From Tricharina praecox (lineage: Eukaryota), in contig NW_026250428.1 of NCBI RefSeq assembly GCF_024521635.1, forward strand, positions 434,001 through 498,000: a DNA stretch of 64,000 bases, given 5' to 3'. Positions 14,370-43,570 of the stretch are shown here, piece by piece. The notes below the pieces were generated by a model. It had not been told where the DNA came from and did not search any database. It was given only the letters and a program-made list of their open reading frames with translations. Position 1 is the stretch's first letter. Every line of letters starts with the position of its first letter. Made by a program: the position numbers and the translations under genes.

Positions 14370-15600
14370 TCCACGGGGGATCTGAATGAGGAGCCCCGTG
14401 CGAATCATCTCCGGAATGCGTCGTCGTTCGGAGCTTCGTACTGCGGGGTTTTTGGTCAGTTGATTGCTTGCAAGTTGCAACTTGTGTAGATCGAGGCAAT
14501 ACCTTACCCACTCCGTTTCCTATGGCCAGCTCGACATGCATGGCTTCCCCGGTTCCCTGAAGACCCGTGTAGAACGCACCTGCAGACATCTGCAACGCCG
14601 CACCGGCCGTCGGGACGGGTGATGGCCATAACCTCGAGGCAAGGCGCCGAGCGGCCTATACTAAAACCGGATCCGGATCGGCTTTCCAACAGTGTTTCCG
14701 ACTGAGTCGGTACGTGAAAGTTGAAACTTCTTGTAAGTGAAACTCGCGTCAGCCCAGTGCCCACGCCTTGGCCCTTGGCCTCAGCCTTGCTCCTACTTGG
14801 CGTCAGTGATGTCACGCTTTAACCTTCAGGCATGCGAGCGTCGAGCGAAGGGGGTGGCAATGGCAGAGGCCCGTTCGGTACCTTCAGTTGCCAGCTTGGC
14901 GCATTCGTCAGCCTTTTCATTCCCATGGGTGTCTTTGACCCGAGCACCAGTAGATCTCACAGTCGGTCCCTCCGGCAGGGTGTGGAAGGTGGCGATCTGT
15001 TTCTTGGCCTGGATGGCGTTCGTTTAGTCAGGGCGTTGTGGGTAGGTAGTAGGTCGTCCTTCAGATATATCGGCCGTTTGTGCATCCGTACAGGTGGTGG
15101 CTCTGTCAAGGGTCGACGGCCGTTTTCAGTGCGGGTGTGGTGGCTGCGTACCTTATGGCCTTTCCACTGGGTACCATGGCGCCAGACGATGGTTTTGCGA
15201 GGGCTTTTTGCCGATGCCTCTTCAGGGCCGGAAAGCGATGGGTCGAGAGAAGGAGAACACACAAGGAGAAAGAGGAGATGGTGGTTGATTGTCTATTCTG
15301 TAGATGATTATCAAGGAAGAAGAAGAAGAATAGGAAGATCCCGCCATGGCAACCAACGTTGATGCCCACCGCTACTAACCACATTCGGTTTCTCCCGCCA
15401 ACAGGAGTCCTCCTTGACTTCCTCCTCTCGCCGACAGCTCCTCCATTGCTCCGCCAAACGGAGAACCAGTCCCCTTGAAGTCTGTTCGAGATCCGTGAAT
15501 GAACACCGAAAGTTCTGGAGGTTGTAGTCCTGGGTGTTACAGTCCTTCATCGCGGGACCTGGTCGCGAATTCTCCATCCACAGGGACCATGGAGTCAAGC
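14370..15600 (-). mobile_element. Highly degenerate LINE (Tad1-like) RNase H region relic
   Basis: Fragments across frames: IVWRHGTQWKGHK, EIYWCSG and GNEKADECAKLA (RNase H C-terminal GNExAD motif, about 14890-14930). Many stops and frameshifts; boundaries approximate. Confidence 0.65.
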
Positions 15601-20731: not shown

Positions 20732-21803
<1,072 letters not shown>

Positions 21804-23142
21804 TGAGCGAGCGTCTTAGGAAGAAAAGGTGTTATCTTTGCGAGCGAATATGGGTGGATGGTTCGTGTGTTGATTCGATCGCGTGGGTGTGTGAATTGTG
21901 TCGAGGTATGGAGGTATAGAGGATATCTGAAGTGGTGATGAGAAGTGGGAAGGAGTGTTGTGATGAGGAAGTGGATGGGTAAGTGAATCTTCAAGGCTGA
22001 ATAGCCAGCCAGCCAGTGAAGCGGTCCGGCGAGGCACAATAGAAAGTGAGAGACTGAATGTCGTCATGTGATCGGAGATCGAGTGATATTGCCTGATCTT
22101 AACGGCGCCGGTGATGGTGCACGACGACGAGCGGAATACTGAATACTCTATTACGAAGCAGCCCTTAATAGCTACTAAAGCTAGAAGTGAGATGCTGCTG
22201 CTGCTGCTACTGGGGAATCTTTGTATCGCCGGTTCTATTTGACTTCAAAGAGCCAGCTCAGCTCACTGCTGCTACCGGCTATGATACCTCTACCGTTCGG
22301 GGCCACCCAATCCGGCTAGTGTGGCTATGATCTGACTAGCCACTCCTCCCATCTTATCTGATCCCCATATCTATCCTGCATATTGCTCCTCTCATGGTGG
22401 TGGCAGACAACCGAAGAGAATTGTTGTAGTTACACCACGATGCTCGAGCTTCAAGTGGGTCCAAGATTGCCAAACGGCAGATTGAGAACCGATTAAAACG
22501 AGTTTGGTACATGTGCCCGTGCTCCGGACGTACAGATGCTGATAGAACCGTAGCTCGGTTCCTCTGGATGCAGACGATGGAGGGCTTCAGCCAATAACCG
22601 ACTCAGGTCCCTTCAGCAGTTAGCTATGATGGGAAAGGACAGCAAAATACCGCAGGCCTCTAGGTCGCTCAGGAACACGGTTAGCAGAGGCTGCCGATCA
22701 CCTACCTACCTGGTACTCTTGAAGACTACCGGTATGTATGTGCGGAGATTTATACACAAGATCCTGATATGATAATATGGTTCGGATCTCGCTACGTACG
22801 ATGGGATGGTTGCGTCATAACACGTAAGTCCTGCTTACTTGTGATGGCGACCTCAGCGTCATTATGTAAGGTAGGCACGTGCTCCACTTTGGGACTCGGG
22901 AGCTGCAGGTCGGGCTACAAACAACTTCGACGACTCAATTCGTCTACCTACATGTCTGTCTGTGGCAACAGGACCGACTTCTACATGGCAACTGCTACAG
23001 GATTCACTCAACCCTCAATTACCCACTGCGCTGGTTGTACTGGTGCGGACACCACTCCGCCAATTCATCACCTCACTCCGCCAATCCATCGCCTCACTCA
23101 GTATCGGCACAAATGTACCCGCTACTCACAGATCAGCACTCA

Positions 23143-23883
23143 ATGGCGTCGCGGGCCTCTGGCAACCATGACAGAGTCGGTATATATAACCCATTCCTGC
23201 ATTCCGCACTCATCTCGATTTATCTCACAATCCCAGAACCACCAGAATACATCTCCAAGCATCTATCGCGATCCTCCCACTCCCGCTCCCGCTCCTGCTC
23301 GCGGCGGTGGAGCACACTCACCGCCGCCCGCTCGCCCGGCTCGGCCTTTTCCCACGCGTCTACCATAGCCACAGCCACATGCTCCGGCCATTCCCGGACG
23401 CGGTCGAGTCCACCCTCCACCCATCGACGACAAACCGCACCCGCCAACTTCGCGAGTCCGCCCCCCGAGTCCCGTCCTTCCCTGAGTCCGTCTCGCAGCA
23501 AGTCCGCCCCCGGTCCCGATCCCGCACCAGCTGCACCAAGCCCGAGCCCTCCCCCAAGCCCTCCCGCGTCCTCCAGTCTCGCTCGCACAATCGGTACCGT
23601 CCGCTCTCGCATCAAGATCTCCAACCTACGCAGGAGCAGGACTTCGACGGCGGCGGCGTCGACGGAGACAGAGAAGCAGGAGGAGGACGACCTAAAGCTT
23701 TCCAAGTACAAGAATGCGCCGGCGAAGGCGAAGCAGCTGTTGGGAGTTATTGAGGAGAAAAAGCAGGAAGAGGGGGCCGAGGATTGCAGTGACGTCTGGG
23801 ACTTTAAATGTACCGGCCTAGACCATGACCCCATGGCGCCCGATGAGTATGTTGGCTTGGGGTATAGGAGGAGTCGGGAATGA
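23143..23883 (+). CDS. Ser/Pro-rich orphan protein with C-terminal WDFKCxGLDH motif (paralog 1), 227 aa
   Basis: Exons 23143-23179 and 23237-23883; phase-1 intron GTATAT...CTCAC...CAG (57 nt). The C-terminus AKAKQLLG...DVWDFKCTGLDHDPMAPDEYVGLGY is shared with 37261-37996. Confidence 0.8.
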   Translation: MASRASGNHDRVGIYNPFLHSALISIYLTIPEPPEYISKHLSRSSHSRSRSCSRRWSTLTAARSPGSAFSHASTIATATCSGHSRTRSSPPSTHRRQTAPANFASPPPESRPSLSPSRSKSAPGPDPAPAAPSPSPPPSPPASSSLARTIGTVRSRIKISNLRRSRTSTAAASTETEKQEEDDLKLSKYKNAPAKAKQLLGVIEEKKQEEGAEDCSDVWDFKCTGLDHDPMAPDEYVGLGYRRSRE

Positions 23884-24831
23884 TTAATGCCAGTGTTGGG
23901 GGATTGGCTGCGGGTGATAGTTCGTACGGGCATGCAGCGTTTCAATCGATCGTTGGGGGTTGGGTATTGGGCTCGTGGTCTTGCTTTTATTGCTGTTTTG
24001 CGGGATACTGTGTTTTTGTATTCGGCTCGACGGGGGAGCGTGTGCGTATGGCGTATCCTATGCGATTGCCAGTAACCCGGGGAAAGTGGGGATTCGTGCT
24101 CTAGATAGGACAGTTACTCATCACTAGACTCTCCAATATTTAGCTGGTTGAAACAGTTCACATTCAGATGGTGTCGTTGCCAGTTCAGTAAGGAAAAGAA
24201 GGTGTCAAGTCGTAGTTGGTTCAGGAAAGTACGAGGGGCTGCTCCGGGGTAAACTGGGTGAAACGCCAGTGCAGCCAGTGCAGCCTGTGTAGCCTGTGCA
24301 GCCTGTGCAGCTATGGAAGTCCAATGAGAGAGCACCGGGGGGTGAGAGTGGGGATGCGTAGTAAAGAAGCGGCGGGAATGTATGAGAGAAGAGGATAGAA
24401 GTGAAGCACCCGTTAAGAACAGTAAATATTACATCATTTGGTCACGGAAAGAGCGAAAGTAAGGTACAGTAGTTTTAAATTTATTTTTTAGGCGTGCACT
24501 CTAATGCTAGCTATTGAAGTGCAACGGTTGAGTCTCTTGATTCTCTCTCGAGCTTCAACACGGTCAGTGTATCAAGTCAGAATCATCTTGCACTCCGAGG
24601 AGAGCCGTTCAGCCGTATATGGTTTGACGTGTCGTGCGACTCTATCGCGATGTGTTTGCCGGCCTTCTAGAAGGCCGGCACAGCAGTGTCCTTCATTATC
24701 CTATCCACCACCTGCTCGGTTGTCTCGGAGGCCTCAGCAGTCTCGTAAGAGGCCCTCTTGTTCGGATCCGACGTTTCTTGCGGAATTCTTCTTCTGCATC
24801 CACACCGTCCTCCACGGTGTGGCTGTTCGAT

Positions 24832-25758
24832 TCATGGATCGTCGGGTTGTTGAGTCACACTCGTATGGCCGTCCGCCCGTCTCCCCGTCCCCATCCTGCA
24901 GAACGTCCGGATCTCATCGCCAACCGGTAAGTAAAGACTTACCGGTGGGCCTTCTGTCCATTAGAGTCTCCGGTAAGCTTGGAGTGACCGTCTTCCACCT
25001 TCTTGGGTTGGTCTGCCCCGCCGAGTCTTCGCTGACTTTCGCGTCACTCTCTTTAACCTTCTTGTGCTTGTTCCGTCGCTCCGAGTCTCGATCGATTTTC
25101 GCGTCACTCTCTTGAACCTTCTTGGGCTGCGCGTTCTGTTGATTAGAGTCTCCGGTAACTCTAGACGCTGCAGAATGACTCTTGACAGGTGTATCAGACT
25201 CCGCAGCAGCCGGGGCAGGCTTCTTCCCGTGCCTCCTCTCGCATGCTTCTTGAAATCGCTGAGCCTCATCGTCGTGTGGCTACACTTAGCGCAAGTGTAT
25301 GTCGCCCGTTTCGTATGCACACGGACGTGGGGTGTGATCTGGTCCCGCTTGGCGCCGGTGTATCTGCATCCCTGCCAAGAGCATTGCAGACACAGGTTCC
25401 GGGTGACCTTCCGTCCGATATGGGCCTCGCAGATGTGGTTATAAAGATCATTCGGGCTGTTGAACGTCTCGGCGCAAGTCCCCCACTGACATCGTGAGGT
25501 AATGGGAGCCTGGTTCGTGGGGGCCGCGGCGGGTTGAGATGGCTGGGCGGATGCGGCGATCGACTGGGTGGCTGGCTGCTCCTTACAGTGCGGCTGCGGG
25601 CTTGCCTGCTCTTCGGCGTCCTCTTCCTTGATATGCGGCTTCTTATCCTTGATACGCGGCTTCTTATCGGCTTGCGACTGCAGTGCGGATTTCTTAGTAG
25701 TAGCCATGTCGGGGGTAAGGATTTGTTTGTTGCGGTGGGAAGCCTTTGGTGCGGACAT
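24832..25758 (-). pseudogene. Diverged PacC/Rim101-like three-C2H2 zinc-finger gene with two apparent frameshifts
   Basis: CQWGTCAETFNSPNDLYNHICEAHIGRKVTRNLCLQCSWQGCRYTGAKRDQITPHVRVHTKRATYTCAKCSHTTMRLSDFKKH follows the PacC finger pattern. The last His of finger 3 (RRH) lies in another frame (about 25238). A second shift at about 25005 interrupts a 20-aa repeat. Start (25758 or 25899) and end (24939 or, via a 47-nt intron, 24832) are uncertain. Confidence 0.8.
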
Positions 25759-25945
25759 CTTGGGAGTATCCTTGTTAGCGGCGAGTTTTTTCCTTGTGGC
25801 GTAACTGTTGCTGGTGACGTGATAACAATATCCCGGGCCAAATGGCCGCCTGGCGGTGCGAAATCTGAGGTTCGAAGAGTGGTCAGCGGAATATTCCATG
25901 GACAGAATTGGGGCACAGAGTGTACCTACGTTTCGCACCGCCACC

Positions 25946-26667
25946 GAAGCCGCTGCCAACAGGCAGCGGACTTCACCCCATGAGTTCTGTCCGGCGGCTG
26001 CAACGCCGCCGAGAGCAGATGACCCATGGGGCAGGGGGCTCATGCTCCCTGGGGACACGAAGTCCCCAACCGTCAACCATTGATGTCGACGGGTCACTAC
26101 GCCTATGGATGTGTCAGATTATACACCGGGTGCTGCATGAGTGCGAACGGGAACGAACCTCCAGAGAGTGCGAAGTAGTCGACCACGCCGCGCAATTTGC
26201 ACCCACTAATCGTGCAGACGGGCATCCCGTTTAGGCTCGAGATCCGTGCGGGTTGCCAGCAAGAATATCCGTTTAATGGGCACCACCACCACCGTTCCTT
26301 CCGGACGTCAGATGGGCAAAGACAAATTCGCCGACTGCCAAACCGGCAATCACTGCGAAGAACCAAGGGCTATACCGCCACCACCACCTCTGAAGCCGCT
26401 GCCGACAGGCAGCCGACTTCATCCCATGGGTTCTGCTCCGGCGGCTGTAACGCCGCCGAGAGCAGATGACCCATGGGGCAGGGAGCTCATCCTCCCTGGG
26501 AACATGAAGTCCCCAACCGCCAGCCATTGATGTTGACGGGTCCCTATGCTTTTGGATGTGTCAGAATATACACTGTGTGCTGCATGGGTGAGAACGGGAA
26601 CGAACCTCCAGAGAGTGCGAAGTAGTCGACCACGCCGCGCAATCTGCACCCACTAATCGTGCAGACG
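25946..26667 (+). repeat. Direct duplication of about 275 bp (25946-26220 and 26392-26667)
   Basis: Manual alignment gives about 22 substitutions and one indel. Confidence 0.95.
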
Positions 26668-26974
26668 AGGCAGTGCGAGCAGGGCCCTCCAGGGCCCACC
26701 TAATCGCACTTAACTTTGCCCCACGCTTCTTTCCCGTGCACATCAAGTGCACGACAACCACCGCAGGTATATTTGCGCTTGGTTTGTATTGAATGAAGAG
26801 GCTCAATGTCAGCACGAGCGCATATAGCCTCTCAGATGAGAGAGAGAGGATGACAGGCAGGGAAGGAAGTGATTACATACCGAAACAGAAATTGTTTGGC
26901 AGGCATGTGCTTAGTGAATTCCGGAACTCTGGTACGACTATGAGTCGTATGGAAGAAAGATTGTGGACGAATAA

Positions 26975-27140
26975 AGAAAAAGGAAGTAGCAAGGAAGGAG
27001 GAAGAGGGAAGAAGGAAGATGGAAGTAGCAAGGAAGGAGGAAGAGGGAAAAAGGAAGATATATGTAGGAAGGAAGGAGGAAGATGGAAGATGGAAGATGG
27101 ATGTAGGAAGGAAGGAGGAAGATGGAAGAAGGAAGGGGGT
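26975..27140. repeat. Purine-rich 39-bp tandem repeat, about 4 copies
   Basis: Unit GGAAGTAGCAAGGAAGGAGGAAGAGGGAAGAAGGAAGAT with variants. Confidence 0.85.
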
Positions 27141-27331
27141 AGTGATGATGGAGAGGGCAGTCGCTAGTGTGTGCGGAATTTTGAATGAAGTGAGGTTTGT
27201 TCGTGGACACGGTTCCGGAAGCCACCGTGGTGGGGATCTGTGACTAGGACCGCCGTTTTCTTTGAATGTTTACCACCCTGACGGTCCCAAAGCCTTGTCC
27301 GGTCCGTTCGACGCGACACACAAGCTCGAGG

Positions 27332-27497
27332 AGAGCGGTATGCTACCATGCAGTGCTAATCCGTCATACCCATAATCAGAGCAGTATGCTACCATGCGGT
27401 GCTAATCGTATATATGCTACTATGCAGTGCAAATCGGTCGTATCCGTAATCAGAGCAGTATGCTACTATGCAGTGCTAATCGGTCGTAACCATAATC
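27332..27497. repeat. Degenerate tandem repeat of about 45 bp
   Basis: Unit resembling CAGAGCAGTATGCTACYATGCAGTGCTAATCGGTCGTAWCCATAAT, 3-4 copies. Confidence 0.8.
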
Positions 27498-28035
27498 CCA
27501 CTACGCTGCGTCTAACACGGGCGTCTTCCATGCATATTACAAGCATGGCGTGGTAAGCCATTCGATATCCTACATAGAGTACCACCGCCACGGACAGAAT
27601 CCAAATCAAAATAAATTCAAACCGACGCCTTACAGCACAAAAAAACACCCTGGCGAGCAAGGTTACCCCGGGGACTCTCATACAGTCGAACCCTGGTACT
27701 CCCCATCTGTCCATCTCTCCCATCCTTTCGCCCATACCGCTGTCATCCCACCCTCCGATCTCCTCCGCTCGCCTGCAACAAGACGCTGATCCCGTCGTTC
27801 TACATATCGTGCCCATCACTTTCGCTGCCGTATACGAGAGCCCCCCCCCCCCCCCCCCCCACGTGTCGGTGCTGATTCAGTCGACGGGCCCATATTTGAG
27901 CCACCGCACACTGTGCACGCAGGAAATCGTATGTCAACACAGCACAGCGTCAGTCGGTCTAAGAAAGGGGGTCGACACGGACATTCGTTTTCCCAGCGGG
28001 CGCTTGGTCTGCGGTTCTTCCGGCGGTAGTTGGAT

Positions 28036-28338
28036 CTATTCCCCGCAACGCGTCGCGTTAGCCACTGCTGCACACGTACTGGCAGAATCCGTCATCCGGA
28101 TTCCGGGCATGGCAGGATCGGATCGACAAGAGTGTGGCCTCGGGCGCGCCGCGCGCGCGAGTGGATCGATGGATAGCGGGGGGCTTACGGAATCGAAATC
28201 TATCGACTCGGTCTCGCCGACCATGCTCGAGCTGGACTCTGTGGTGTTGCTGTTCGTTGAGGACTGGGTTATCGCGGGCGACACGCAGTTGTCCGGGCAG
28301 CGCTGCGAGCACTGATGGCTTGACGATTGGGCGGACAT
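28036..28338 (-). CDS. Possible Ser-rich small protein (100 aa)
   Basis: ORF MSAQSSSHQCSQRCPDNC...; AT-rich TATTTAAT about 155 bp upstream. No recognisable domain. Confidence 0.3.
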   Translation of the reverse strand: MSAQSSSHQCSQRCPDNCVSPAITQSSTNSNTTESSSSMVGETESIDFDSVSPPLSIDPLARAARPRPHSCRSDPAMPGIRMTDSASTCAAVANATRCGE

Positions 28339-31300
28339 CGATCGTGCTTTGGTGGCTTGCGCTTGGTGGCTTGCGCTTGGTGGCTTGGTGGGTGGGGCAC
28401 CGAGTAGGTGCTCTAGGGGGGAGAGAGGGCGATGGGGGAACGGGAACAGGACGGAGCGTACGGACTGACTGCACCTCCTGTGGCTGGTCGGTATTAAATA
28501 TGAGGGTGCAGCTGAAGAAAAGGGTTCGCAATGCACGTCGCTACCGACATGTGGATGTGCAGAGGGGGCGCCAATCCTCAGCGGGAAGAATGGTTAATTA
28601 AAGGCGGCCGTCATGCCTGCGCCGGCAGGGAGCTGGATAGATGGGCAGGTGAAGGGTGAGGGAACAGGAGGAGACCTTGGTGATGTGGCCAATATCTACA
28701 TGCTGCATGCATGCACTCGGGGTAAATCCTCAACTTACTCTACATTCTTGCCTGTGATCACAACGATCAGAACGATCCTCCCGCTGACGACGATACCCTC
28801 GCCAGCGAACACTACCTCCCAGGCCTAGGGATGAAGTTTTAGGGCGACACACAGAGCCCGCGTCCACGATCCCCCTACGCCGGTAGACGAGCCTCGTTTA
28901 CAACTCCTCACCATCACCAGCACCAGCCCCCTTTACCCAGGAAAGCCCAGCCCAAACTCGAAGGGTTTAGAGTATCTACGCTCATGTCTCTCCCACCAGC
29001 TCTTAACCACAACTAACTACAGATCCCTGCCTTTACCCCGGCTCCAGCTTGTAACCGGCCGACCGAATCCTTCGCTACTCTTCCCCACAGCGCGCTAATC
29101 CACTTGGCTCCTGTACCGTTATGGGATCGCCCCTACGCTGGCGCCACAGCTTTGCCGGGATGGATGGGAATTGCCCAGGAGAGCGAAGTTGCAATTCCGT
29201 ACTCGTATCGACGGCGAACCGACTTAAGACACTGCGTCGGTGGCGTCGATTCGAATTTCGGTCTTGGATTGCAGAAGCCGGTCTTGACTCTTGTGCGGTC
29301 CCGAGAAACCGCCTTCGTCGGTAGGCGCCGGATGGGATGGGTGGGCGGGATGGATGGGTGGGTGGTCGCTGGTGACTGGGGGGTGTTGTTAGCCGTGCTG
29401 GGCCTTTGGATGATGTCGCTGGGAAACGGAATTCAGCGTGCACGAGTACCTACTCTACCTACACCGGTTTTCGGCTCGCTGGGCAGGCTGTCTTCAGCCG
29501 TGCTTGATGACTGATGTGGCTGCTGTGGCTGGGTATCGGAATCCAGCGTTCCCGTATCTCTCCACCGGTTTTTTTTTCGGCTCACCGAGTGGTTACATAA
29601 CCAATACCTACAGAGCCCAGAGGCGGCCGTTACTCGTTCACATCAGCCGTTATTTATTCATGTCAGCCATTATTCGTTCATGTCGGCAGTTGCTGCAGAA
29701 CGCGACAGGACAGGACCAGCCACCTGCCCATCTCGTATCATATGTACTCTATGTACGCGTTTTGGATGAGTGTACAATTTCGCCTGGCGAAATAACTTGT
29801 CGATGGATGCATAGTGCAGATTTCACGGGACGGGGACGGACGGGGACGAGCGACGGGGAATTTTGACGTTCGATAATGAGGGTCAATGCGCGGCGTTTTG
29901 GCTCTCAACTCAACTTAACTCAAGTCTACGATGCCCGGTCGGTTTCGCGTCGTGTGGAAACTAGAAAGATGCCTGATGCCAGTATTCATATACTCTGCAA
30001 AAAAAAGGCATGCCCCGTGTCCTGGTCACCGGGTTTGCATGGAGAACTGTCTGGCTTATGTAGTGATCTTACATATCTACCTGGACACCTACCAAAGAGC
30101 GGGGCGGTGAAGTCTGAACATGCCTGCGAGTTTCTCTTTGACTTTTCTTCCCTCTTGGCACGCATCCCCACCCCCCTCAAGACAACCGATTAGGACTCTG
30201 AGTCGACTACAATTCACGCGATTAGAGCATCTACATTTCCTGACCGTCCGCGATCAGGATGGTTCTTTTCTTTGTGACTTCTACATCCACAGCTGAGAAA
30301 TCTGGCGTGGTTGGTAATTGGTGACTTCCGCGCGTGTTTTGGATTAGCGAATAGTCTCTTCTTCTCCTCACAAAGACGGCGCGATGGCGAGGCGATATGT
30401 ACCAGCACCCCCTGCATGCGTTTCCAGCGGCCGGCTCCCTGTTGATTTGTCGAGCGAGAGCTGGCTGATAGGTACATACAAGCCACTGGAGACTAATGAC
30501 CATCCACAGTGTGTCAGTTGTCAGACTACATGAGAGGGGGGGGGGGATCACCGTCGCAAGTAATTCCAATGTCAGTACGTAGGCGGAGTGCTCTAACTAG
30601 CGGCAACACATAACTACCAGTGCGACGGGATGGGACTCCGGACTCTGGACTCTGGAGAACGCTGGGCTGGGCTGAGATGGGATGGGATGGGATTGGATGG
30701 GACTCTAAAGTCTGGACTCTGGGGAAGAAGGCGGGGATGGACTCTGGAGAAGGCAGGGCTGGGACTCCAGACTCTGGCGTTGGACTCTGGGGGAGAAGAA
30801 GGCGGGGATAGCGCGGCGGGGATGGGCGCGGCGCCAGATGGTGGAGGGGGGGGGGGGGGGGGGGGGGGCGGTCGAGACCCGCTATCCTGGACGCTAGTTA
30901 GGACGCATAGTTTGTGCTCGATAAGCTGCTGCTGCTGCTGCCGCTGCCGGTCGGACACAGCCTTCCGACGTACGCATCGAATCATGGGATGCATTTATTT
31001 CACCATCGAACCATCGCGCATCGGTCGGCGAACTTCGTGTGCTGCTGCGACCGACGACGCAAACGGAACGGAACCGACGGAACGGAAACGGAAACGCGGC
31101 AGGGAACGGGGCAGTGCAGTGCATAAATGCAAAAATGCGGATGTTCCGGTCGGTCGTGTCGTCGCGTCGGTTCACACGGCTTGAAGCTTAAGGCGAAGAT
31201 GTCTGATGGTGAGGGACCCTCGGCGGGTATGGACGACTGATGAACCGATTCAATTGCGTAAAAAAGCAACAAGAAAGAAAAGCAGGCCTGTAAACTTCAA

Positions 31301-31536
31301 GCCTGTAAACTTCAAGAGATAACAACTGTCTGCGGCGTTGATAAAAAATGGCTGATGTGCGACCGAATAGTACTATACGAACAGAAAAGCAGCAACAGAG
31401 AACATTTCAACGTTTAGCGACCGCATCGGGTCTACCCGCCATGACACTTGGTCCCACCATACCGCCGCTCATCCCTCCCCGCTCTCCGCAACACAGAGGC
31501 GCCTCTGCCTCCGAAGCCGACAGTATGTCTGAAGGT

Positions 31537-31634
31537 ATTGACGCGGACGATACGAGACGGATTGACGCGGACGATACGAGACGGATTGACGCGGACGATA
31601 CGAGACGGATTGACGCGGACGATACGAGACGGAT
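31537..31634. repeat. 24-bp tandem repeat x4
   Basis: ATTGACGCGGACGATACGAGACGG repeated exactly four times. Confidence 0.95.
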
Positions 31635-32204
31635 CGCCGGAAGTGCGACGAGACGAGACGAGACAAGACTGTGGTGCTGTGCATTACCTAGAGTATTCAG
31701 CAGAGTCTCAGGCTCGGATCGGCGCTGTCAGTCATGTTCCGACGTCCGTGGCTGCAGCCTGCGGGACGATACGACATGGACGACATAGACAATGGACTTT
31801 GACAACCGGAACTCCGCTGGAGCCTAGAGCGACGTCGTGACATGACATGATATTTCTGCATTCTGTATTCTTGCATTCTTGGTGTTGCTCCAGCCTCCAG
31901 CGACTTCCCAGGGATGGATAAGGAATAACCACACAGCTTTCATTATTCTCCCACTCTCATCGGAGCCGTGCGCTTCCTTCCTTCCTTCCTTCCTTCGTAC
32001 CGTCATCCTGCGACAAGATAAATATTACATGTAAATCCCAAATCCAGACACCCCTTCGTGAAGCAAACCCCCAGTCAAAATGCCCGTGATATCCGCGCAG
32101 CCATAATGATAACCGCGTCAAAAAGAAAAAAGCAACCCAAACGAACCGAACGAACCGAACCAAAGAACCAAACGAAATCCTCTTCTCCGTGCCCTCCTAT
32201 TCTC

Positions 32205-32599
32205 CTAATGGGCAGCGATTCCGAGCTTCTTCTTCACGAACTTCTTGCTGTGTAGCACCCGTTCCGTTAACCCTTGGCTCTGGCCCTGGGGTGGTGGTAG
32301 GTGGTGGTAGATGGTGGTAGGTGGTGGAGGTGGTGGATGGAAAAGGGCAGAGGGAAACATACAGTTTATCCGCGAGGCCATGCTTCTCGGCAAAAGCCTT
32401 AGCTTTTTCGGCGTTCTCATTCTTCTTTTCCTGTGGGTGCGCATACATGCACGTCAGCGACGATCTCCATTTAGGGCAGAGGGAAGGGGCGAGAGGCAAG
32501 ACGCGAGGGGAGGCGAGGGAGTGCGGAGAGAACAGCGGGGAACATGTCACATACGGCGGGGGTGGGCTGGACAGCCATGACCTCTTGCGGTTGAGACAT
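32205..32599 (-). CDS. 51-aa Lys-rich amphipathic microprotein, 3 exons
   Basis: Exons 32599-32555, 32430-32363 and 32247-32205. Both introns are GTATGT...CAG with branch sites CTGAC and TTAAC. Spliced protein: MSQPQEVMAVQPTPAEKKNENAEKAKAFAEKHGLADKLKKFVKKKLGIAAH. Confidence 0.85.
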
Positions 32600-34168
32600 G
32601 ACGGGGTCGGTGGTGGTGGTTGTGGGAACGCGGCAGGCGGAGAAGAAGAGTAGGAGTCTTTCTCCAGCGACGGTGATGCTGATGCTGATGAGGGAAGGTG
32701 GAGAAGGAGGAAGAGGAGGGAGGAGGAGTAGCAGGGACGATCGAGGGTGTCGGGAAATGCGAGCTATACTATATACTACATCCCCCATCCCCATCCCACC
32801 CAGTGACCCAGCTCCTTTGTTTTATGGCACACCCACCCACTCACCCGTCCGTCGCGGGCAGGGGAGGAGAGGGCAGAAAGCGCAACCGTCCGTCCATCCA
32901 TCCATCGTTGGTGGGTGTGTCTGCAGGCGGCCGAGCTACCCAACTACCCAACCCAACTGTTCGTTAGGATGATTTCGTATCCTCGGCTGCACACCTCCAT
33001 GCTCCACTCCATGCTGCGCGGTACAGGGTCGGGTCGGACCCCAGCAGTTCATCATACCTAACCAAGGCTGAAGCGAAGTCCCCATAGTTGACTATCCCAG
33101 CCAAACAAAAATCCGCTACGCACCCAGCCCCCAGAGTCCCAGACCCAGAGGATGAGGATGACTTTGAGCTGCGCAGAGTCTGCATGGGCATATGATACTG
33201 AACGAACGAGCGAACCCGGACCCGGCTTTGGAGATGTGATCGCTCGATGGCGAGTCTGGTCGCGGCCCCCCTCCTTCCCCGGGCCCCCAGCCCACAATGC
33301 ACATGACTCCTTGCTGCACTGTAACACTGTTTGTTCTTTTTTTGGAGCCCCTTTCATTCCACCAGCCTGCACTGCTGTGCAGCATGACGCGCGCCCGTCC
33401 GGCGTCCGCATGCCGGCCCCACAAACTTTCTCCTCCGCCTCCTCGTCGTCCGGCGCGTCGCTTCCATCACTGGTGTTTTTCGCTTGTTGGCCATTACTCC
33501 ACTAGTAAAGCTTGGTGCAATGCAATGGTCGGCACCGTCTGTAGGATCACATGGAGAAGAGTAGATATCCCTTGATAGTACTCTACTTTCAGCAGTTTGT
33601 CGGTACCGTTGCGTTTCGTTGCGCGTGCAGTCGCCTGAAACGGCATTTGCGCAGATTCCACTGCCCAGAATGCAGGGTTCCCCGCCATGCCATGCCGACG
33701 CGTCGCGAGCATCCACCACCACCACCGCCACCCACCGCCACCAGCACGACCACCACGACCACCAGCACGACCACCACGACCACCAGCACGACCACCACGA
33801 CCACCAGAACCAACCTCCTCCTCCGCCCCGCCCTTACCACAACCAGCCGAGAAAACGAAACCGCCGTGCCGAAGGATGTGACATCCGGCCGTCGGTGATA
33901 CAAAAACTCCGGTTGACTCTTGAGTCTCGAGCACTCGCATCCGGGTGAAGTCCTTCGCACTGCTCTAGACTCAGAGTACTATATAGTAAACTCTAGTTAG
34001 TCGTCAAATCGAAATCGAAATTGATACGGACCCACCGTTGTTTCCCGGCTGAAATCCCCCCCTACTGTACTGCTATGTCGATACCTATACAGGTACTCTG
34101 CGGCCGATCCCATGCCATGGTAGAGTAGGTGCCCGGGCCCCAGAGAAAGCTGCTGTGTATGTACCTTT

Positions 34169-34510
34169 GAGAGACCCAAAAACGGGTGAGGGTGAGGGTG
34201 AGGGTGAGGAACAAAAATGGGATCAATTGGACTAAAGTTCTCGGTCGATGGTGATGGTGGCGATGATGGCGCTGATGATGAAAAGAAAACAAGACGAGCA
34301 AGGACGACAGAAATGCATAGTCTCAGCAAAAACAATGCAACGTTTGACGACCGCATCGGGTTTCCCATCAGAAACCCTTAGCGTCACCCCCAAGAGGGGC
34401 AAGACAGCTGGTCTCACCAGGTCCCGACAAAGTCTCGCTCCTCCATCAGTTGGTCCCACTCAGGTCCCGGCAGAGTCCCGCTCCTTCGGCGCTCACCGGT
34501 GACGCCAAGC
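34169..34510 (+). repeat. Dispersed repeat family member (related to 43780-44115 minus and 31400-31515 plus)
   Basis: Shared blocks: GAGAGACCCAAA, AGGAACAAAAA, GACCGCATCGG, CCAGGTYCCGACAA, CAGTTGGTCCCAC, GACGCCAAGC. Confidence 0.75.
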
Positions 34511-35619
34511 CGGTTATCCGAGTTGAGAGTGGCAGTGAGAGTGGGAGTCAAATTGCAGGAGGAGGCCGTAGTGCCGCCGGTTAGCCGTAAGAGGTGGAGA
34601 AGAGGGGGTAGATTTCGATCTGGGAAACGCATGTATCTACTCTATGTATCCCACAGGGCAGGGAAGGTTCACGTCACGGTCCCGTTGCCATCGAAAGTAA
34701 ATGTCCGTGCTCAATCCTTATTTCTGGCCGCGTCTTCCAGCCAGATACAATATCCAAATACTCTATGTAGGCTGCATTAGTTAGCGAGCAGATGTCTTCC
34801 GCAAGCTATGCTGTGTGCAATGTTTCGTGTTGATACCTGTTTAGGCACGTCATACACACTAGGCCATGCCAGGGCATGTCTACTATACGGTGTAGGCATG
34901 TATGTATGTAAGATATATACTGGCTGGCATACACATAGTCGCCAGTGTGTGAAGATCGCGGGCGCCCGGCGCCGGTGTACGGTGTGTATAAGGAGCGGCT
35001 GTCCGATGATCGATCACCCGTCACCGTGGGAGGCGGGACCACCTGTTCTACTTCTCTAGCGTCTGTTCTGTTCTGTTTGTTTGTCTCTCGAGGAGTTGGA
35101 GAGTCGGAGATGGCAGTATTACGGTCCTGCGGCTTGCCCAACCTCTGCCGCCCCCCGGTTTTTTCGAGTGTCGAGATCGAGCAGTCCATTGCCGTCGCCA
35201 TCGTGCATAGAGTACCTAGATTATTGCTACGTACAGAAGTCCGCCTGGAATAGAACAATGAATACTACTTGTTGACTGGTCACAGTTGTGGCGAGTCTAC
35301 GCACCAACGGCGCACGGGTGTCGCTCGCGTGCTCGTCACTGTTTTCGAGGCATGGGGGATGTGAGGGATGCGCTGGTAGAACTACTTCGAACTTAAAAGC
35401 GCGAGATCCGCCGCTGTGGTGGGTTGTGTGCAGACACAACCGCTGATGGTGTTTCAAAGGTCAGCATCCGAGTGACAGACTGTGATTTCGCTGACCCGGT
35501 ATCGGGACTCGACTCGCTGGATAATCGTCCGAAACTGTCATGTACGTTAATCTGCTGCGTGATGGAAGTAAACTATGGATCTGCCGAGCAGACATCAAAT
35601 ATCTCACTGGTAGCAGAGA

Positions 35620-35880
35620 AGCGAAGAAACTTGGGCAGACGGTGGGGGCATTCTTGGGTATCCAACGACGGAACCCTATTCAATCATGGCAGAACCGAAG
35701 CGATCCTGTTTGGTACCCAACTATGGGAAGTTGGGAGCCATCCCATGATCCCTGTGAGAGACTGAAGATCCATTTCGATAAGGAAGCTATCTGTTGGCTG
35801 GGAGTCTGGCTGTATTCTCAACGCACCTCGAAGGAGCATCAGTCGAAACGCCTGCAGAAGGGAAGGGAAGGACGCAATGG
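35620..35880 (+). mobile_element. Degenerate LINE reverse-transcriptase C-terminal fragment
   Basis: FNHGRTEAILF and, in another frame, IHFDKEAICWLGVWLYSQRTSKEH match the non-LTR RT motifs KTE and (Y/W)LGVxLDxxL. Confidence 0.75.
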
Positions 35881-37029
35881 CCACATGGACAGACCTGCTG
35901 ACAGAGTGCATATACGTTCGCATATTTATTAGAACTATACTAAAACGGTTCGATTATCCAGTTAGAACTAGTCAAACTGAATAACTAGCAACAAGCGTAT
36001 CACGTGACACATGAATGTCAACAGAAGAAGGAAGCGGAAGAAGAGTATGCGGTTCTGATGACACCGCTGCAATCGATAACGAGTCTCCGACTCCCGAAAG
36101 TTGGAGTCAGTAAGTGGAAGGGAGTACCAAGTTCTATGTAGAGAATCTTGGAGCCATCACTCGACTGAACTCGCAAAATTCAGAACTGAACTGACGAATG
36201 AAGCAGTTTTTCGAAGAGCAACATTCCAATTTCCGACAAACTGGATCTGGATACTGGTGGATGTGGTGACTTCCGCAGCCGCGGTTCACGGGCTCTGAGA
36301 TTCTGGAAAACGTAAACTACCCTCGACTCTCCATCCCCCATTGTCAGGTTATTTGCAGTGCGAATGTTAATCGGTCGGTTACAACTGGCCGGTGCAAGTC
36401 TCTAACCCTAACCCTAATCCTGGAGGTGACCCCTCAGACGACGAACCCTCTGATGGTGATGAGCCTTCAACGAGAAGCCCATCGTCGTACCATCGACGGT
36501 GTACCCCTCCGTGCAGGAAGAACGACATCGAGAACGAGATACAATGCTTTGTGCATGGAATGGCTGAAGCCCTTACCGCGTTGAATCGAGGGGTTCAGAA
36601 ACTTGCAGTGCCTCAAAGTTAACATAGATGATAAAAAGGACGAGTGAGCGTTGAAGACGGGAGACCTCAGACTTGGTGTCAAGATGCCAGAGGCTGGAGA
36701 TACTCGTGTTTGCGTGTAGGCTGGAAGACAAATGTCAACCGCCGATGTCGTGCATTCTTTCATTACATGTTATCTAAGAAGTAGCTACACGGTGGAAAAA
36801 ACAAGAAGAAAGAAGAAAAAAGCAGCCAGGCAGAAACTTGTGGCGGCGATTCTCTATAAACAATGTGTATCTCCCCTAGTACCTACTGCCGGCACAGTAT
36901 AAACGCAACCCAAAACCGAAACACCGATCACGGGCAATATTTACCAATCAATAAGCAAAGAACCAATCAATACAGTAAAGAACCAATCAATACAGCGAAG
37001 AACGCCGATAAAACAACACGAGAATAAGA

Positions 37030-37173
37030 ACAGTAGTAGTAGAAGTAGTAGAAGTAGTGGTAGTAGTAGAAGGGGTAGAAGGGGTAGAAGGAGTAGAAGC
37101 AGTAGAAGTAATAGAAGTAGTAGGAGTAGTAGGAGTAGTAGCAGTAGTAGCAGTAGTAGTAGTAGAAGAAGAA
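37030..37173. repeat. (AGT/AGA/AGC)n degenerate trinucleotide microsatellite
   Basis: Visible directly; it generates the spurious poly-Leu and poly-Thr ORFs. Confidence 0.9.
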
Positions 37174-37260
37174 GTTTCATGACCGAAGGAGGAAACGCGT
37201 ACAGCAGTTTGCGCGGAAAAGAAAAGAAATCCTGACCCGTCCCTCCACCGCATCAATCCT

Positions 37261-37996
37261 TCAAGTTTCGTCCCTGTTATACGGCATCCCTATCCACTCC
37301 TCGGGCGCCATTGCGTGATGATCGAGGCCGATGCACTTGAAGTCCCAGGTATCGTCGATTTCAGACTCATCCTCCGAGTCGAACTCCATGTCGAGCTCGG
37401 CGGCTGCCAGAAGGAACCGAGCCTTTTCAGACGCCCTCTCTTGCTTTGTGATCCTCGCCTGTGCGCCCTTTCGGGAACTCTCCGTCGGTGCTGACTGGGT
37501 CCTGCGCAGGACGGGGAGAGGTTGGCGGACGATACGGAGGCTGGAGGTTCGTTGAGGGGTGACGGTGGGCGGGTCGTCTCCAAACGGGGTCAATGGCCTG
37601 GAAGAGGGTGTGGCCGGGTCTTCTCGAAGCGGGGTCAATGGCCTGGAAGAGGGCGTGGCCGGGCCGTCTCCAAACGGGGTCAATGGCCGGGAAGAGGGTG
37701 TGGCCAGGTCGTCTCCGAACAGGGTAGATTGCCTGAAAGAGGAAGTGGTCTGGCGGAAGAGGGTTGTGATCGGGCGTGAGAAGGCCGTGGCCGGACGGGC
37801 GAGGGGTGTGACGGGGCGTGAAAAGATCGTATTTCGGCGGGAGATGGGGGAACTCGGGCAGGAGCGAGTGAAACTCAAGGACCACCTGGAGGTGCACCCT
37901 GGTTGTGGGATACTGTCAGCTTACTGCCGGGGAGCGAGCAGAAGAGGATAGATGGGGGTATATACCAGCGTCGACATCATGCTCCTTGTTCGCCAT
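37261..37996 (-). CDS. Ser/Thr/Pro-rich orphan protein with C-terminal WDFKCxGLDH motif (paralog 2), 222 aa
   Basis: Exons 37996-37966 (MANKEHDVDA) and 37898-37261; phase-1 intron GTATAT...GCTGAC...CAG. Three 15-aa repeats (ATPSSRPLTPFGDDP). C-terminus EKARFLLA...DTWDFKCIGLDHHAMAPEEWIGMPY. Confidence 0.82.
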
Positions 37997-39125: not shown

Positions 39126-40017
39126 AAGGCTATTCAAACGCTGCTGCGTGGCTCTCGATCGGCGCCCCATGGATCCGGAAAAGAAGATTGTGGTTAGTGA
39201 AGTAGAGCAGTAAATTTCGGTAGACATGGAGAAATCCTTCACCGAAATTTAAGATTTTCCGGGCTGAACTCAATTCCGCCGGAGCAGATCCGTCACAGCT
39301 TCTTTTGAGTTTGAGCACCCGAGCATTTTTTCCAGTCGATAATCGTACAAAATCCACGTGTTCATGTCATCGAAGAATTCTACGCCAACAACCGATCATG
39401 TATCCAACGACGGAGCAAGAGGATTCACCACACCTTCCCCAGTCCCCGTCATTGTCTGCCATTGAACCGGTATAAAAAATAGGCCTTTACAAACCGCAGG
39501 CACAATCTCACCAGCATCTATCTCTCGATGAGGGCTAACCTAAGCGTCATATAGTGCATAGTTGCAATCAGTTGAGAGGCCTTGGTTGCAGTAAACGCAC
39601 GGTGGAAGGATGTGTATCTAGGGCCAACGTACAGAATTAACATGTAGATTCGTCGACACCTACTACATCTATGAGCGCCTCCCATCGGTGTACACCACCG
39701 TTTACCACTCAAAGATGGGAAAGGAGCGGTGGCCGGCCAGGAGATTGTCGTCCGTCGCATTATAGCGTCTCTGGTAATCACCCTCGTCGACTGATCAGGG
39801 GAGTGGAGAGCGATAAGCCTCCGCTAACTTCTCCAGCAAATGCGAACAATCTATATTCGCGCGAGCGAGATGCCAGCATCCCTTCGATTCCCGTCCAATG
39901 CGCCAATCGACAAACCAATGACAGAACCAATGACAGCACCAATGAAAACCCGCAAGGCTCCTCTCCCGTAGGAAGCTCACGGCAATCACTTCCCCAGAGC
40001 GGCACAAAGAGATCCAC

Positions 40018-40675
40018 TCACCGCCGACTCCAGCAGCCCAACAGCGTCCGTACCCATCCCTTCCCCACGAGCGTACTCACAGCATCGAGCTCATACAGCC
40101 TAGCAGCTCTCAGCTGCGCCTGCAGTTCATCCTCGCGCTCAGGCATGCCAATCAAGCCACCCACATCCCTCAGTTCCAGCTCCTTCTCCTCCACCGCATC
40201 CTCTCCCGCCTCCTCCACCAAAACCTCCCCCGGCGCACGCCTCATCTCTGCGTCCCTCCAGCTCCGCCAGAACTCCGACAGCACCCTCACGACATCTCGA
40301 TCCCGCAGGTACACGAGGACATACTCGGGATCTCTCTCGAGTGCGCGGAGCCTTTGCGTCACATCCTTTCGTCCCAGCAGGTGAATCGCCGAGGTATTGA
40401 AGCGGAGGATATTCGTGAGCGTGGTCTCGTCCAGAATCGCGGAGAGAAAGGCGGGGTTGCGGAGGATGTGGCCACCGCCGCGAGAGCTGCGGGAGGATTC
40501 ACGACTGCCGCGGTGGCAGGCGCTCGGTGAGACGGGCGGGATGAGGAGGCCGGTCTGTAGAGCGGCCCGTTAGTTAGCGGTGAAGGTACGTGGAGGGGGT
40601 ACTTGCCGCTCCGGAGAAGAAGGCGGATCTCTCGGAGAGAGTCAGGTCCGCTGGGATGGCGGATGCGACGGGCAT
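40018..40675 (-). CDS. Hypothetical protein, 201 aa, 2 exons with a GC-AG intron
   Basis: Exons 40675-40607 and 40554-40018; intron GCAAGT...GCTAAC...CAG (52 nt) joins MPVASAIPADLTLSERSAFFSGA in frame to a 179-codon open exon. Confidence 0.7.
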
Positions 40676-43570
40676 TCTTGTTTTCCGTGGTATTGCGGGT
40701 GGGGAGTAATAGGGCTATCGAGGAACGGGTGCATCGGGCGCTCGGGTTGCTTCGGCTTTCCACGGTGATGCCGAACCTCAGTACCATCGCCTGGCCGTAC
40801 GGGTAGAAATGTCGAACACTGTGCGCAGTGTGTAAGTTGTCGGGGAAACCCCTGCCACCACCAGGAACGTCATTCGTTCCCGACACGACTAGTGGTGGGG
40901 CGCCAGGACGCCCATGTGGCCTATGCCAGGGTCTCGCGTAATCGGCCATCACAACGCGTCGCGGCCGCCGGGTCTTCCCTCCCCGTCATCGGTCCAACCC
41001 ACCATCGCCAACCATCGCAGTCCATCGCAACATCGAAGAACGTCAGTCTTCTAGCCCTAGTCCCTAATCGATTGCTATTCATCGCAGCCCGTCACAGTCC
41101 ATCATCACGCCGGAGAACGTTGATTTTCCCGCCCCAGTTCCTATCCGTGGCTCAGATGTTGAAAGTACAGTCAACATGCTGTGGCCTCGCTATTACCGTA
41201 CGATAGCAATCCGGGCTCGGAGCATGGACTTCTTTCCGTCGTTGCAGGGAACTACGAGGACGCCAACCAAGATGAAGCATACCCTGCTACACAAACAATC
41301 CATACAGCGTCGGAACTTTCTGCTCGCGGTTAAAGCTAACAGTGCCTTTTTCGGTCACGAGGCAACCACCGAATACGGTTCGATTTTCGCGAATACGACC
41401 GTTTCCCGCATGGCGTCTACATCCGGGATGTTATCTCAGTTATCAACGCGTCATCCGGTGTCTCGACTCCCTCGAGCCCCCGGACGCTGACAGAACGGTG
41501 TCGATCGGCGAAATTAGCCTCGTGGTGATTTTTAACACATCTTCACCGGCGCAACATACATCCTCACTGGCGCGACATACACCGAAGGCCTCGCACCCGA
41601 AGTTATGCACATTGTCCCATTCGCTATGTGTACTACGAACGAGCCAAAAACGAACCCTTCGGGAGTGCAGTCAAACTCCTATTCCCGCCGAGCAGTTCGG
41701 GCAGTTCGAAACAGTGTGGGACCGCTATGGAGGTAGCAATGCCAACTGCCGGTACAATCTAGCCGTGCTCGACGCGGAGCTACATCGGATGCTCAATGCT
41801 CAATGGTGGAAACGTTTCACTGAAGCCTGTTAGTCTTGACTCTTGGAGGACCATCCGAGGCTCGGGTCCACTCAAACAAAGTGGGATGACGAAGAATGGA
41901 ATGAGCTAAATTTCCATTGCTTTGTGCCTCATGTTTATCGTTTTTTTCTTGCGAAGTGGGCCGGTTTTTGTATTGGGTGGATCGATGCGTGATAGTGGAT
42001 GCGGAATTATACAAGTATGTACAGTAATGAAATCATATTGCACGGGACTTTCACATCGTCCGGGCCGAGCTTTCCTTCACGCCCAACGGGTAGGTCCCAT
42101 GTGGTCAGTCTAGTTCCGGCGATGATTCGGCACTTTGCCAACCCTGAGTGCTTCCAATGGGCCATCCGATCCGTACCCATTCCAGAGCACGCACGTACGA
42201 ACCTGACGATACATGAAGGCATTTCCACTTTCATTTCCACTTCGGCTATAGTGTACTGTGTATCTTGGACGATTGCAAGTGCAAAGACTAAGTAGAGACG
42301 ATCGTAACGAGGAACCTATGAGAACTGCCAGCTTCACTACAGCACTACCGGCTTCGCCGCTTCACAAGCCATCACTCGTAGCGCGTTTCATTCGGTATTC
42401 ATGACGATGCCAGTTGCTTAGGAGTGGCCGTCCCTCCATAGGCTCCGGTCGCCGCCCGCACACCCCTCGTCATGGGGAATCTCATAGCTATCTTGCGCAC
42501 GCGGCGGATCGGCGACGGACGCGAAAAAGTGGCCGCTCGGTCGATCCATGCTGCATACGTTATCACACTACCGCATCCCCCGCTACATACCACGTGCGAG
42601 TGCCGAAAGTAAGGAACATCCCGGCCCGCTTCGGCAGATTGCGAAACGTGGCGCCAGATGCGCACGCGAGCGTTCTGCCTGTCTGCCTACCTGCCGGCCG
42701 GCCGATTGCTGGGAAGTCAAGTACTTATCTCTCACATATCCCTTGGTGGCTATGGTGGATTTCGGTTGCGGTTGGCAGCTTCACGGAATCACGGGATGTC
42801 ACTCCTCTGGAAGTTGAAACGGAATGTTGATATTAGCTTTCCGTCGAATGACCGGGTACTCTTGTGAAGATAGGAGAAGGGACGCTCTACCTAGGTAACA
42901 GACATATATCACACCGCCCTCTTCACCTTCACCTCCATACCGGCACCGGTATTCGGTCCTGTTTCCCTAGAGTCTGGAACTACTGTCGGCTTCGGCGGCG
43001 TGGTACTTATCGCAATAACTACCATATTCGTGTTTATCCGATACCGTCGGAATCGGTCCGTGGAAATTTTCAACGTGCTCTGCTCGACATCTTCAGATCC
43101 TCCCTTTCCTTCCCTTGGACCCTTCCCTTCTAGTTTCGAGGTTGTTTCAGCATATCTGCGTAAGCTGCCGCATTTCCGTGAATACGTGATACCTATCCTG
43201 GAAGCTGGAGTACGGTAGAGCTCTTCCTCTTGCTCGCTCGTAGCATTCGAAATCATTGCTTCCTGCCTGCTGCCTGCTTCCGCTGGATACCGGCATATAT
43301 TTGTCACTCACACTCTCACTCTCACTCTCGCTGACCACGCCCGACCGACCGCCCGAGATGCCCGTCCCATGTCCGTCCGTCCCATGTCCGTCCGTCCCAT
43401 AATCCATTCTGCTGTGAAATATCCGACCGACAAACCATTCCGTAGACTCATAAGTACCCATGGATTATGAAGTGCATGTGATCTATAGCATCTATCGCAT
43501 CCATAGCAACTATAGTATCTATACTATCTATAGTATCTACAGGGCCGGGCCCCGGCCGGAGACTTGGAGA

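What the first reader, a model, noticed from the sequence alone, without database searches (positions are those of the whole stretch)
23143..37996. Unrecognised two-member gene family: disordered S/P-rich proteins with a conserved C-terminal WDFKCxGLDHxxMAPxExxG motif and a shared intron
Seen: genes at 23143-23883 (+) and 37261-37996 (-) are 227 and 222 aa. Each has a 10-12 codon first exon containing HD, a phase-1 intron starting GTATAT, and an RWS motif early in exon 2. Both have an unalignable Ser/Pro/Thr-rich middle, then KAxxLL, an acidic spacer and the motif (WDFKCTGLDHDPMAPDEYVG vs WDFKCIGLDHHAMAPEEWIG). Inference: conservation of only this 20-aa terminal module points to a selected binding motif (Cys/His may bind metal or dock a partner) on a phospho-regulated disordered scaffold. 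I do not recognise the motif from any named family.
Basis: partly seen in the sequence, partly recalled or inferred. Interest (0 to 1): 0.72.

Follow-up and report, generated by a model that had tools for sequence, protein, structure and literature searches.

The report
Cup-fungus disordered proteins, conserved tail motif
These two genes belong to a small, fast-turning-over gene family, so far seen only in one family of cup fungi, whose floppy proteins all end in the same undescribed 17-residue peptide that is kept by selection and most likely docks onto a partner protein that is still unknown.

Summary
The two genes, their phase-1 introns and the shared tail are real; public Tricharina praecox models use the same introns. 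The family is not two-membered: a third copy lies on another contig, and I collected 21 non-redundant members; all 10 named proteins are Pyronemataceae. The family motif is usually an acidic tract plus W-D-F-K-C-[IV]-G-L-x-x-D-P-x-[CA]-P-x-E near the C-terminus; DFKCxG is invariant in 21 of 21. Synonymous sites are saturated, pN/pS about 0.25, only in this frame. Copies sit in clusters, and decayed copies lie between intact ones. No Pfam, NCBIfam, PDB or literature match. A second, partly conserved LxRxx[ST]xP site (7 of 21) suggests kinase/14-3-3 control. Best reading: phospho-regulated disordered adaptor or competitor with a C-terminal docking motif; partner unknown. Splicing is not shown by RNA and binding was not tested.

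The parts
23143..23179 (+). Gene A exon 1 (12 codons + 1 nt); public model starts 10 codons upstream at 23113
   Evidence: same 37-nt exon in relative L005
23180..23236 (+). Gene A phase-1 intron, 57 nt, in frame and stop-free; alternative acceptor at 23245
   Evidence: predicted, no RNA joint seen among those listed
23237..23883 (+). Gene A exon 2: basic S/T/P-rich disordered body, helix, acidic spacer, motif, stop
   Evidence: 23618-24248 covered without a difference by one contig of an RNA-type run
23626..23649 (+). Position in A that aligns with the LxRxx[ST]xP site of B; A keeps L and R but lacks the +2 Pro
23725..23742 (+). KAxxLL amphipathic helix of A (A/B subfamily only)
23797..23856 (+). 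Conserved tail motif of A (20 codons from W), preceded by an acidic spacer
37966..37996 (-). Gene B exon 1 (10 codons + 1 nt)
37899..37965 (-). Gene B phase-1 intron, 67 nt; required for the reading frame
   Evidence: same-phase intron predicted in positional ortholog L007
37261..37898 (-). Gene B exon 2, with about three imperfect 14-residue S/T/P repeats in the body
37486..37509 (-). LxRxxSxP site of B (AMPK/MARK-type and 14-3-3-type consensus), 52 residues before the W
   Evidence: consensus from PMC6890249 passages
37408..37425 (-). KAxxLL helix of B
37288..37347 (-). Conserved tail motif of B (20 codons from W)
39845..40711 (-). Unannotated neighbour upstream of B, conserved in the same place and orientation in L007; marks L007 as positional ortholog of B
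   Evidence: 68% aa over 190 residues; 72% nt over 640

Best explanation
A Pyronemataceae gene family of intrinsically disordered regulatory proteins whose selected part is a C-terminal docking motif. Shown: genes, family, selection on the motif, lack of a fold, clustered copies with decayed neighbours. Inferred: the acidic tract (short or absent in a few members) steers the tail to a basic surface of a folded, conserved partner; W, F and the following aliphatic residues enter pockets; the K-C-x-G-L..D-P..P..E stretch orders on binding. The body has no catalytic domain, so the protein acts as an adaptor or a competitor whose dose can be tuned by gene copy number. Inferred more weakly: phosphorylation of an LxRxx[ST]xP site 25-70 residues upstream by a Snf1/MARK/CaMK-type kinase recruits 14-3-3 and gates the tail in some members. 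The partner is not identified.
For: DFKCxG invariant in 21 of 21, W 19, L 19, D 17, P 16, second P 19, E 18 of 21; W lies 22-30 residues from the C-terminus in 19 of 21. Over 7 genes with DNA: third codon positions vary in 19 of 20 columns, pS 0.86, pN 0.22; the other five frames give ratios 0.43-2.0 and contain stops. pN 0.08-0.19 in the motif vs 0.42-0.60 in the body at similar pS in five pairs. AlphaFold2 model of A's last 97 residues: pTM 0.22, two helices, motif coil; Atlas models pTM 0.10-0.11. Two metagenome proteins carry 10 and 7 imperfect tandem copies of the motif's first half, as expected of a modular binding unit. LxRxx[ST]xP within 75 residues of the W in 7 of 21 members (4 lineages), 1 occurrence elsewhere, shuffle mean 0.1. 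Decayed copies have lost motif residues and have in-frame stops.
Against: No partner, binding or phosphorylation evidence of any kind. The motif window was chosen for its conservation, and the LxRxx[ST]xP pattern was tightened after seeing the data; the looser [RK]xx[ST]xP is hardly denser near the tail than elsewhere (0.0058 vs 0.0041 per residue), is missing there in 12 of 21 members including gene A, and the +4 Leu of the AMPK consensus is absent. An invariant Cys is unusual for a plain docking peptide. About 17 constrained residues is long for a typical linear motif (own knowledge). Several members are partial or automatic gene models.
Confidence: 0.55

Rival explanations
1. The tail is a thiol-based metal or redox site (Cys-x4-His-x3-Cys, or Cys/His/Met in A and B) that binds Cu, Zn or Fe or forms a disulfide, possibly between two chains.
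For: First Cys invariant 21 of 21; second Cys nine residues on in 16 of 21; at least two of Cys/His/Met in the ten residues from the first Cys in 20 of 21.
Against: Cys+His+Cys together in only 11 of 21; A and B lack the second Cys; one member has a single ligand. W, D, F, K, G, L are as conserved as the Cys, which a bare metal site would not need. No zinc-finger or metal-binding family hit.
Confidence: 0.15
2. The acidic W-D-F is a WxF motif of the kind that Ste20 kinases and STRAD use to bind MO25 (fungal Hym1/Pmo25); the proteins are kinase-less decoys or adaptors of that scaffold.
For: W-D-F in 19 of 21. PMC3725419 passages: WxF motifs of STRAD and MST3 bind a MO25 pocket and fission-yeast Nak1 has WEF. 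The genome encodes a Mo25 protein.
Against: WxF is three residues and common (151 in 234,490 six-frame residues); W is Met in 2 of 21; the 14 conserved residues after it are unexplained; no kinase domain.
Confidence: 0.08
3. The tail is a non-canonical Atg8-interacting motif (F-K-C-I/V with W at -2) and the proteins are selective-autophagy receptors, perhaps for a divergent Atg8 paralog.
For: Core F-x-x-[ILV] in 19 of 21 behind an acidic tract; repeats of this half in two members; three ATG8-family loci in this genome, two intronless and divergent.
Against: 0 of 21 match xLIR or cLIR as defined in PMC5119064; gene A and its ortholog have Thr and Ser at the +3 position; downstream conservation unexplained.
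Confidence: 0.07
4. The family is not lineage-specific but the diverged form of a wider fungal protein whose motif drifted beyond detection.
For: The motif is short; the last word-index search scored only 8,000 candidates; the one exhaustive search used a single sequence, not a profile.
Against: All 10 named proteins among the 18 hits are Pyronemataceae; the exhaustive phmmer search of 1.84 billion representatives gave 5 hits, 4 of them family members; Atlas gave one sub-threshold Ascomycota cluster (0.75) and no usable hit.
Confidence: 0.12
5. The similarity is DNA-level (repeat, RNA element or overlapping gene) and not a protein motif.
For: Long open frames exist on the opposite strand of gene A.
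Against: Synonymous saturation with low pN only in the stated frame; stops in every other frame in 2-7 of 7 sequences.
Confidence: 0.02

Closest known systems
AMPK/MARK/SIK substrates with 14-3-3 sites (CRTCs, class IIa HDACs; PMC6890249, passages read)
   Same: LxRxx[ST]xP in a disordered region in 7 of 21 members, including gene B.
   Different: No sequence relationship; +4 Leu absent; site missing near the tail in gene A and most members; phosphorylation untested.
MO25-binding WxF motif of STRAD, MST3 and Nak1 (PMC3725419, passages read)
   Same: W-x-F near a C-terminus, here behind an acidic tract.
   Different: No kinase or pseudokinase domain; 14 further conserved residues including an invariant Cys.
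LIR/AIM motifs of selective-autophagy receptors (PMC5119064, passages read)
   Same: Acidic flank and F-x-x-[ILV] core in 19 of 21, in a disordered protein.
   Different: 0 of 21 fit xLIR or cLIR; gene A lacks the +3 aliphatic residue.
Cip/Kip and plant KRP CDK inhibitors (Pfam PF02234; resemblance recalled, not from a call)
   Same: Architecture only: about 200-residue disordered protein with a conserved C-terminal module containing W-x-F.
   Different: No Pfam hit at E<=10 or E<=1, no PDB profile hit.
Pezizomycete lineage-specific genes (Pyronema confluens, PMC3778014, passages read)
   Same: Short, unannotated, restricted proteins are abundant in this lineage (5,737 orphan genes reported there).
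   Different: Here a multi-genus family with a demonstrably selected motif; developmental regulation untested.

Membership tests
LIR/AIM | Core [WFY]-x-x-[ILV] | tested here: inconclusive
   19 of 21 members, but not gene A or L005
LIR/AIM | xLIR or cLIR regular expression | tested here: not met
   0 of 21 for each
LIR/AIM | Binding to an Atg8 protein | not tested
MO25-binding WxF proteins | W-x-F motif | tested here: met
   19 of 21; low information
MO25-binding WxF proteins | Ste20-type kinase or pseudokinase domain upstream | tested here: not met
   No Pfam domain in any member scanned
MO25-binding WxF proteins | Binding to MO25/Hym1 | not testable with these tools
   The genome's Mo25 gene is split over several exons
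AMPK-family / 14-3-3 clients | LxRxx[ST]xP site | tested here: inconclusive
   7 of 21 members, 4 lineages; present in B, lacks +2 Pro in A
AMPK-family / 14-3-3 clients | Leu at +4 (LXRXXSXXXL) | tested here: not met
   Glu or Lys at +4 in the 7 sites (sequences)
AMPK-family / 14-3-3 clients | Phosphorylation and 14-3-3 binding | not testable with these tools
   Needs phosphoproteomics and pull-down
Cys/His metal-binding motif | Three or four conserved ligands | tested here: not met
   One invariant Cys; Cys+His+Cys in 11 of 21; neither A nor B has the second Cys
Cip/Kip/KRP CDK inhibitors (PF02234) | CDI domain match | tested here: not met
   PDB profile searches
Any described protein family | Pfam, NCBIfam or PDB match above cut-off | tested here: not met
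   only sub-threshold compositional hits

The most novel reading that the evidence does not exclude
A lineage-born, copy-number-variable family of enzyme-less decoys whose acidic W-D-F-K-C tail occupies a pocket on a deeply conserved signalling scaffold (best named candidate Hym1/MO25, second a divergent Atg8 paralog), switched by 14-3-3 and by the redox state of the invariant cysteine, letting these post-fire and mycorrhizal cup fungi retune a core growth pathway by gene duplication.
Probability: 0.12. Interest if true: 0.7.

Novelty: new variant of a known kind. Interest (0 to 1): 0.36.

Why it matters
It defines an undescribed, well-bounded 17-residue motif under strong purifying selection in otherwise free-drifting proteins, small enough to synthesise and use as bait. 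If it docks on a conserved regulator, it would be a clear case of a young gene family tuning an old pathway in fungi of burnt soil and roots. As it stands the pattern (disordered protein with a terminal motif, restricted to one fungal family) is common, and there is no partner or phenotype, so the interest is moderate.

Tried and rejected
RNA: no holder on record as RNA was listed; two runs guessed to be RNA were laid as contigs. They show spliced joints at neighbouring genes, but none across either intron among the 15 joints shown (7 not shown), and no cover on gene B; this is no evidence against expression. Complex prediction with the Atg8 paralog: tool not available, no verdict. Cluster-member look-up could not be made. 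Fold search on the low-confidence model: no match, uninformative. Tree on 23 columns: 1 of 16 inner branches supported, not used for orthology. Intron DNA similarity: only A vs L005 beat shuffles (p 0.024, 1 of 6 pairs). Dropped as chance: P0003 (repeat protein without the motif), L012-L015 (bacterial-like, off-frame), L026 (viral collection, E 5e-4; the frame I translated did not show the motif and I did not check the other frames). Dropped as redundant before counting 21: P0004, P0005, P0012, L006, L008, L010, L011. Own-genome searches with the two most divergent types found no fourth copy ('not found with this query'). No synteny between the window or the C39 locus and L005/L006 or L009/L010 beyond the gene itself. 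Considered from recall and set aside without a dedicated test because key residues do not fit: FFAT, PP1 RVxF, AGC hydrophobic motif, CRIB, SHP box, WIP/verprolin tail, heme-regulatory CP motif, fungal amyloid signalling motifs. One mutation-spectrum line was out of register and was not used.
Full report
Observation. Enumerating GT..AG introns gives 227 aa for A (intron 23180-23236) and 222 aa for B (intron 37965-37899), both phase 1 with a GTATAT donor. The two tails find each other at E 1e-10 in the 38-Mb genome. A's intron is in frame and stop-free and has a second acceptor nine bases on; B's intron is needed for the frame.

Comparative support for the gene structure. A metagenome search returned 11 loci from 109 pattern matches; 7 (L005-L011) are family loci and 4 are chance. 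L005/L006 is the closest relative of A (54% identity over the last 97 residues) and L007/L008 is the positional ortholog of B, sharing the upstream neighbour in the same orientation. Both have a short first exon and a predicted phase-1 intron; in L005 the first exon is 37 nt as in A, the intron holds an in-frame stop so splicing is required, and the acceptor lines up with A's second one. HD and RWS are not kept in these relatives. One contig from a run guessed to be RNA, in which neighbouring genes are spliced, covers 23618-24248 without a difference; it does not reach the intron.

Family. A third copy lies at G000:C39:683445(-), a 113-residue Thr/Ser-rich frame with the motif but no acidic spacer. 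A profile of the tail found 18 proteins among 8,000 scored candidates: 2 from Tricharina, 5 from Trichophaea hybrida, 2 from Wilcoxina mikolae, 1 from Sphaerosporella brunnea and 8 unnamed. All four named species are Pyronemataceae. The five Trichophaea proteins share one contig length and the two Wilcoxina proteins another, from which I infer clusters. L009/L010 carry two intact copies 3.5 kb apart with two decayed, inverted tail copies between them (nhmmer E 1e-7 and 2e-5 in L010, in-frame stops). This is birth-and-death evolution. After removing 7 redundant records I counted 21 members.

The motif. In 21 members D, F, K, C and G are invariant; W 19 (Met 2), L 19, D 17, P 16, second Cys 16 (Ala 5, the A/B subfamily), P 19, E 18, His 12; the W lies 22-30 residues from the end in 19. 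KAxxLL and the aromatic E-[YW]-[IV]-G ending belong to the A/B subfamily only. Bodies align within subfamilies but hardly between them. For the 7 genes with DNA, third positions vary in 19 of 20 codons, pS 0.86 and pN 0.22; A vs B alone gives p 0.0007; no other frame shows this. In five pairs pN is 0.08-0.19 in the motif and 0.42-0.60 in the body. The window was picked for conservation, but saturation of silent sites shows the constraint is on the protein. Two unnamed proteins repeat the first half of the motif 10 and 7 times before a full copy.

Structure and second site. AlphaFold2 on a 10-row alignment gives two helices, a coil motif and pTM 0.22; Atlas models are equally unfolded. An [RK]xx[ST]xP site lies within 75 residues of the W in 9 of 21 members (6 of 17 after collapsing near-duplicates, shuffle mean 1.5, 9 of 5,000 shuffles as high); 7 fit LxRxx[ST]xP, with 1 occurrence elsewhere. 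PMC6890249 (passages) gives LXRXXSXXXL for AMPK-family kinases and RSXpSXP for 14-3-3. Against: the loose pattern is about as dense in the rest of the bodies, the strict one was defined afterwards, the +4 Leu is absent and gene A lacks the Pro.

Mechanism. Shown: real genes, a family, a selected terminal motif, no folded domain, copy turnover. Inferred (0.55): the tail docks on a conserved folded partner, and the protein works as an adaptor or competitor, in some members gated by phosphorylation and 14-3-3. Named partners are weak guesses: MO25/Hym1 through W-D-F (PMC3725419 passages; WxF is common) and Atg8 through F-K-C-I (0 of 21 fit xLIR or cLIR from PMC5119064 passages). A metal or redox role for the cysteine(s) is the main alternative (0.15), but only one ligand is invariant.

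Known or new. No Pfam match above cut-off for the window genes or the members scanned, none in NCBIfam for 11 proteins, none in PDB by sequence, three profiles or fold. Literature: 'WDFKC' anywhere gave 1 paper, unrelated by its listing and not opened; five locus tags and a 9-residue piece of the motif gave 0; listings showed nothing on the family; passages of PMC12773724 mention the species only for assembly. Supplements were not searched and could list these genes. PMC3778014 (passages) shows that lineage-specific genes are abundant in a relative, so the pattern itself is not surprising. Earlier scan notes had nothing on this place or sequence. The limit on range is real: the only exhaustive search used one sequence, and the profile searches were word-indexed.

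Verdict. Observation confirmed, interpretation partly supported and widened: an undescribed Pyronemataceae family with a selected C-terminal motif of unknown partner. New variant of a known kind; interest 0.36.

Noticed in passing
G000:C1:1843136 (L031), G000:C1:1198035 (L032), G000:C8:571899 (L030): The genome has three ATG8-family loci: a canonical intron-containing gene and two intronless divergent paralogs that keep the C-terminal Phe-Gly; L031 matches solved Atg8/GABARAP chains at E 1e-22. Most ascomycetes have one ATG8 (own knowledge).
   Followed up: partly
L010:2205-2262(-) and 2419-2470(-); L009 equivalents: Two decayed inverted copies of the tail between the two intact family genes.
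   Followed up: yes
P0006, P0015: Unnamed metagenome proteins with 10 and 7 imperfect tandem repeats of the motif's first half, Met replacing Trp.
   Followed up: partly
P0009, P0011, P0014, P0016, P0017, L009:3876-5069: A second short motif, [DN]-x-aliphatic-L-x-E-L, recurs in the N-terminal bodies of the Trichophaea/Wilcoxina subfamily, three times in P0011.
   Followed up: no
window 31500-32800 (-): A spliced transcript with very high contig depth in both laid runs (the tool warns depth is a poor measure) and only a small Lys/Glu/Ala-rich frame of about 50 codons; no Pfam hit in the frames scanned.
   Followed up: no
window 24472-27267 (-): Spliced C2H2 zinc-finger gene (weak Zap1_zf1 hit) just downstream of gene A, with a roughly 450-bp-spaced direct duplication at 25.94-26.67 kb in its 5' part.
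   Followed up: no
window 8230-8440: Short element also present twice in L007 and in L008; resembles the 3' end of a non-LTR retrotransposon frame (identification recalled, not tested).
   Followed up: no
window 53500-55900: Block of degenerate tandem repeats with no intact long frame in common.
   Followed up: no
window 20732-22063 (-): Frame with Ser-Pro-Ala triplet repeats and a long acidic tail; the Pfam collagen hit at 21216-21803(+) is probably its opposite-strand shadow.
   Followed up: partly
window 39845-40711 (-): Conserved unannotated gene upstream of B, 68% identical in L007, no Pfam hit.
   Followed up: partly
window 4045-4554 (-), 13265-14404 (-), 58293-58847 (-): Other Pfam hits in the window: 4'-phosphopantetheinyl transferase, a sub-threshold zinc ribbon, and a glycosyltransferase family 15 exon.
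   Followed up: no
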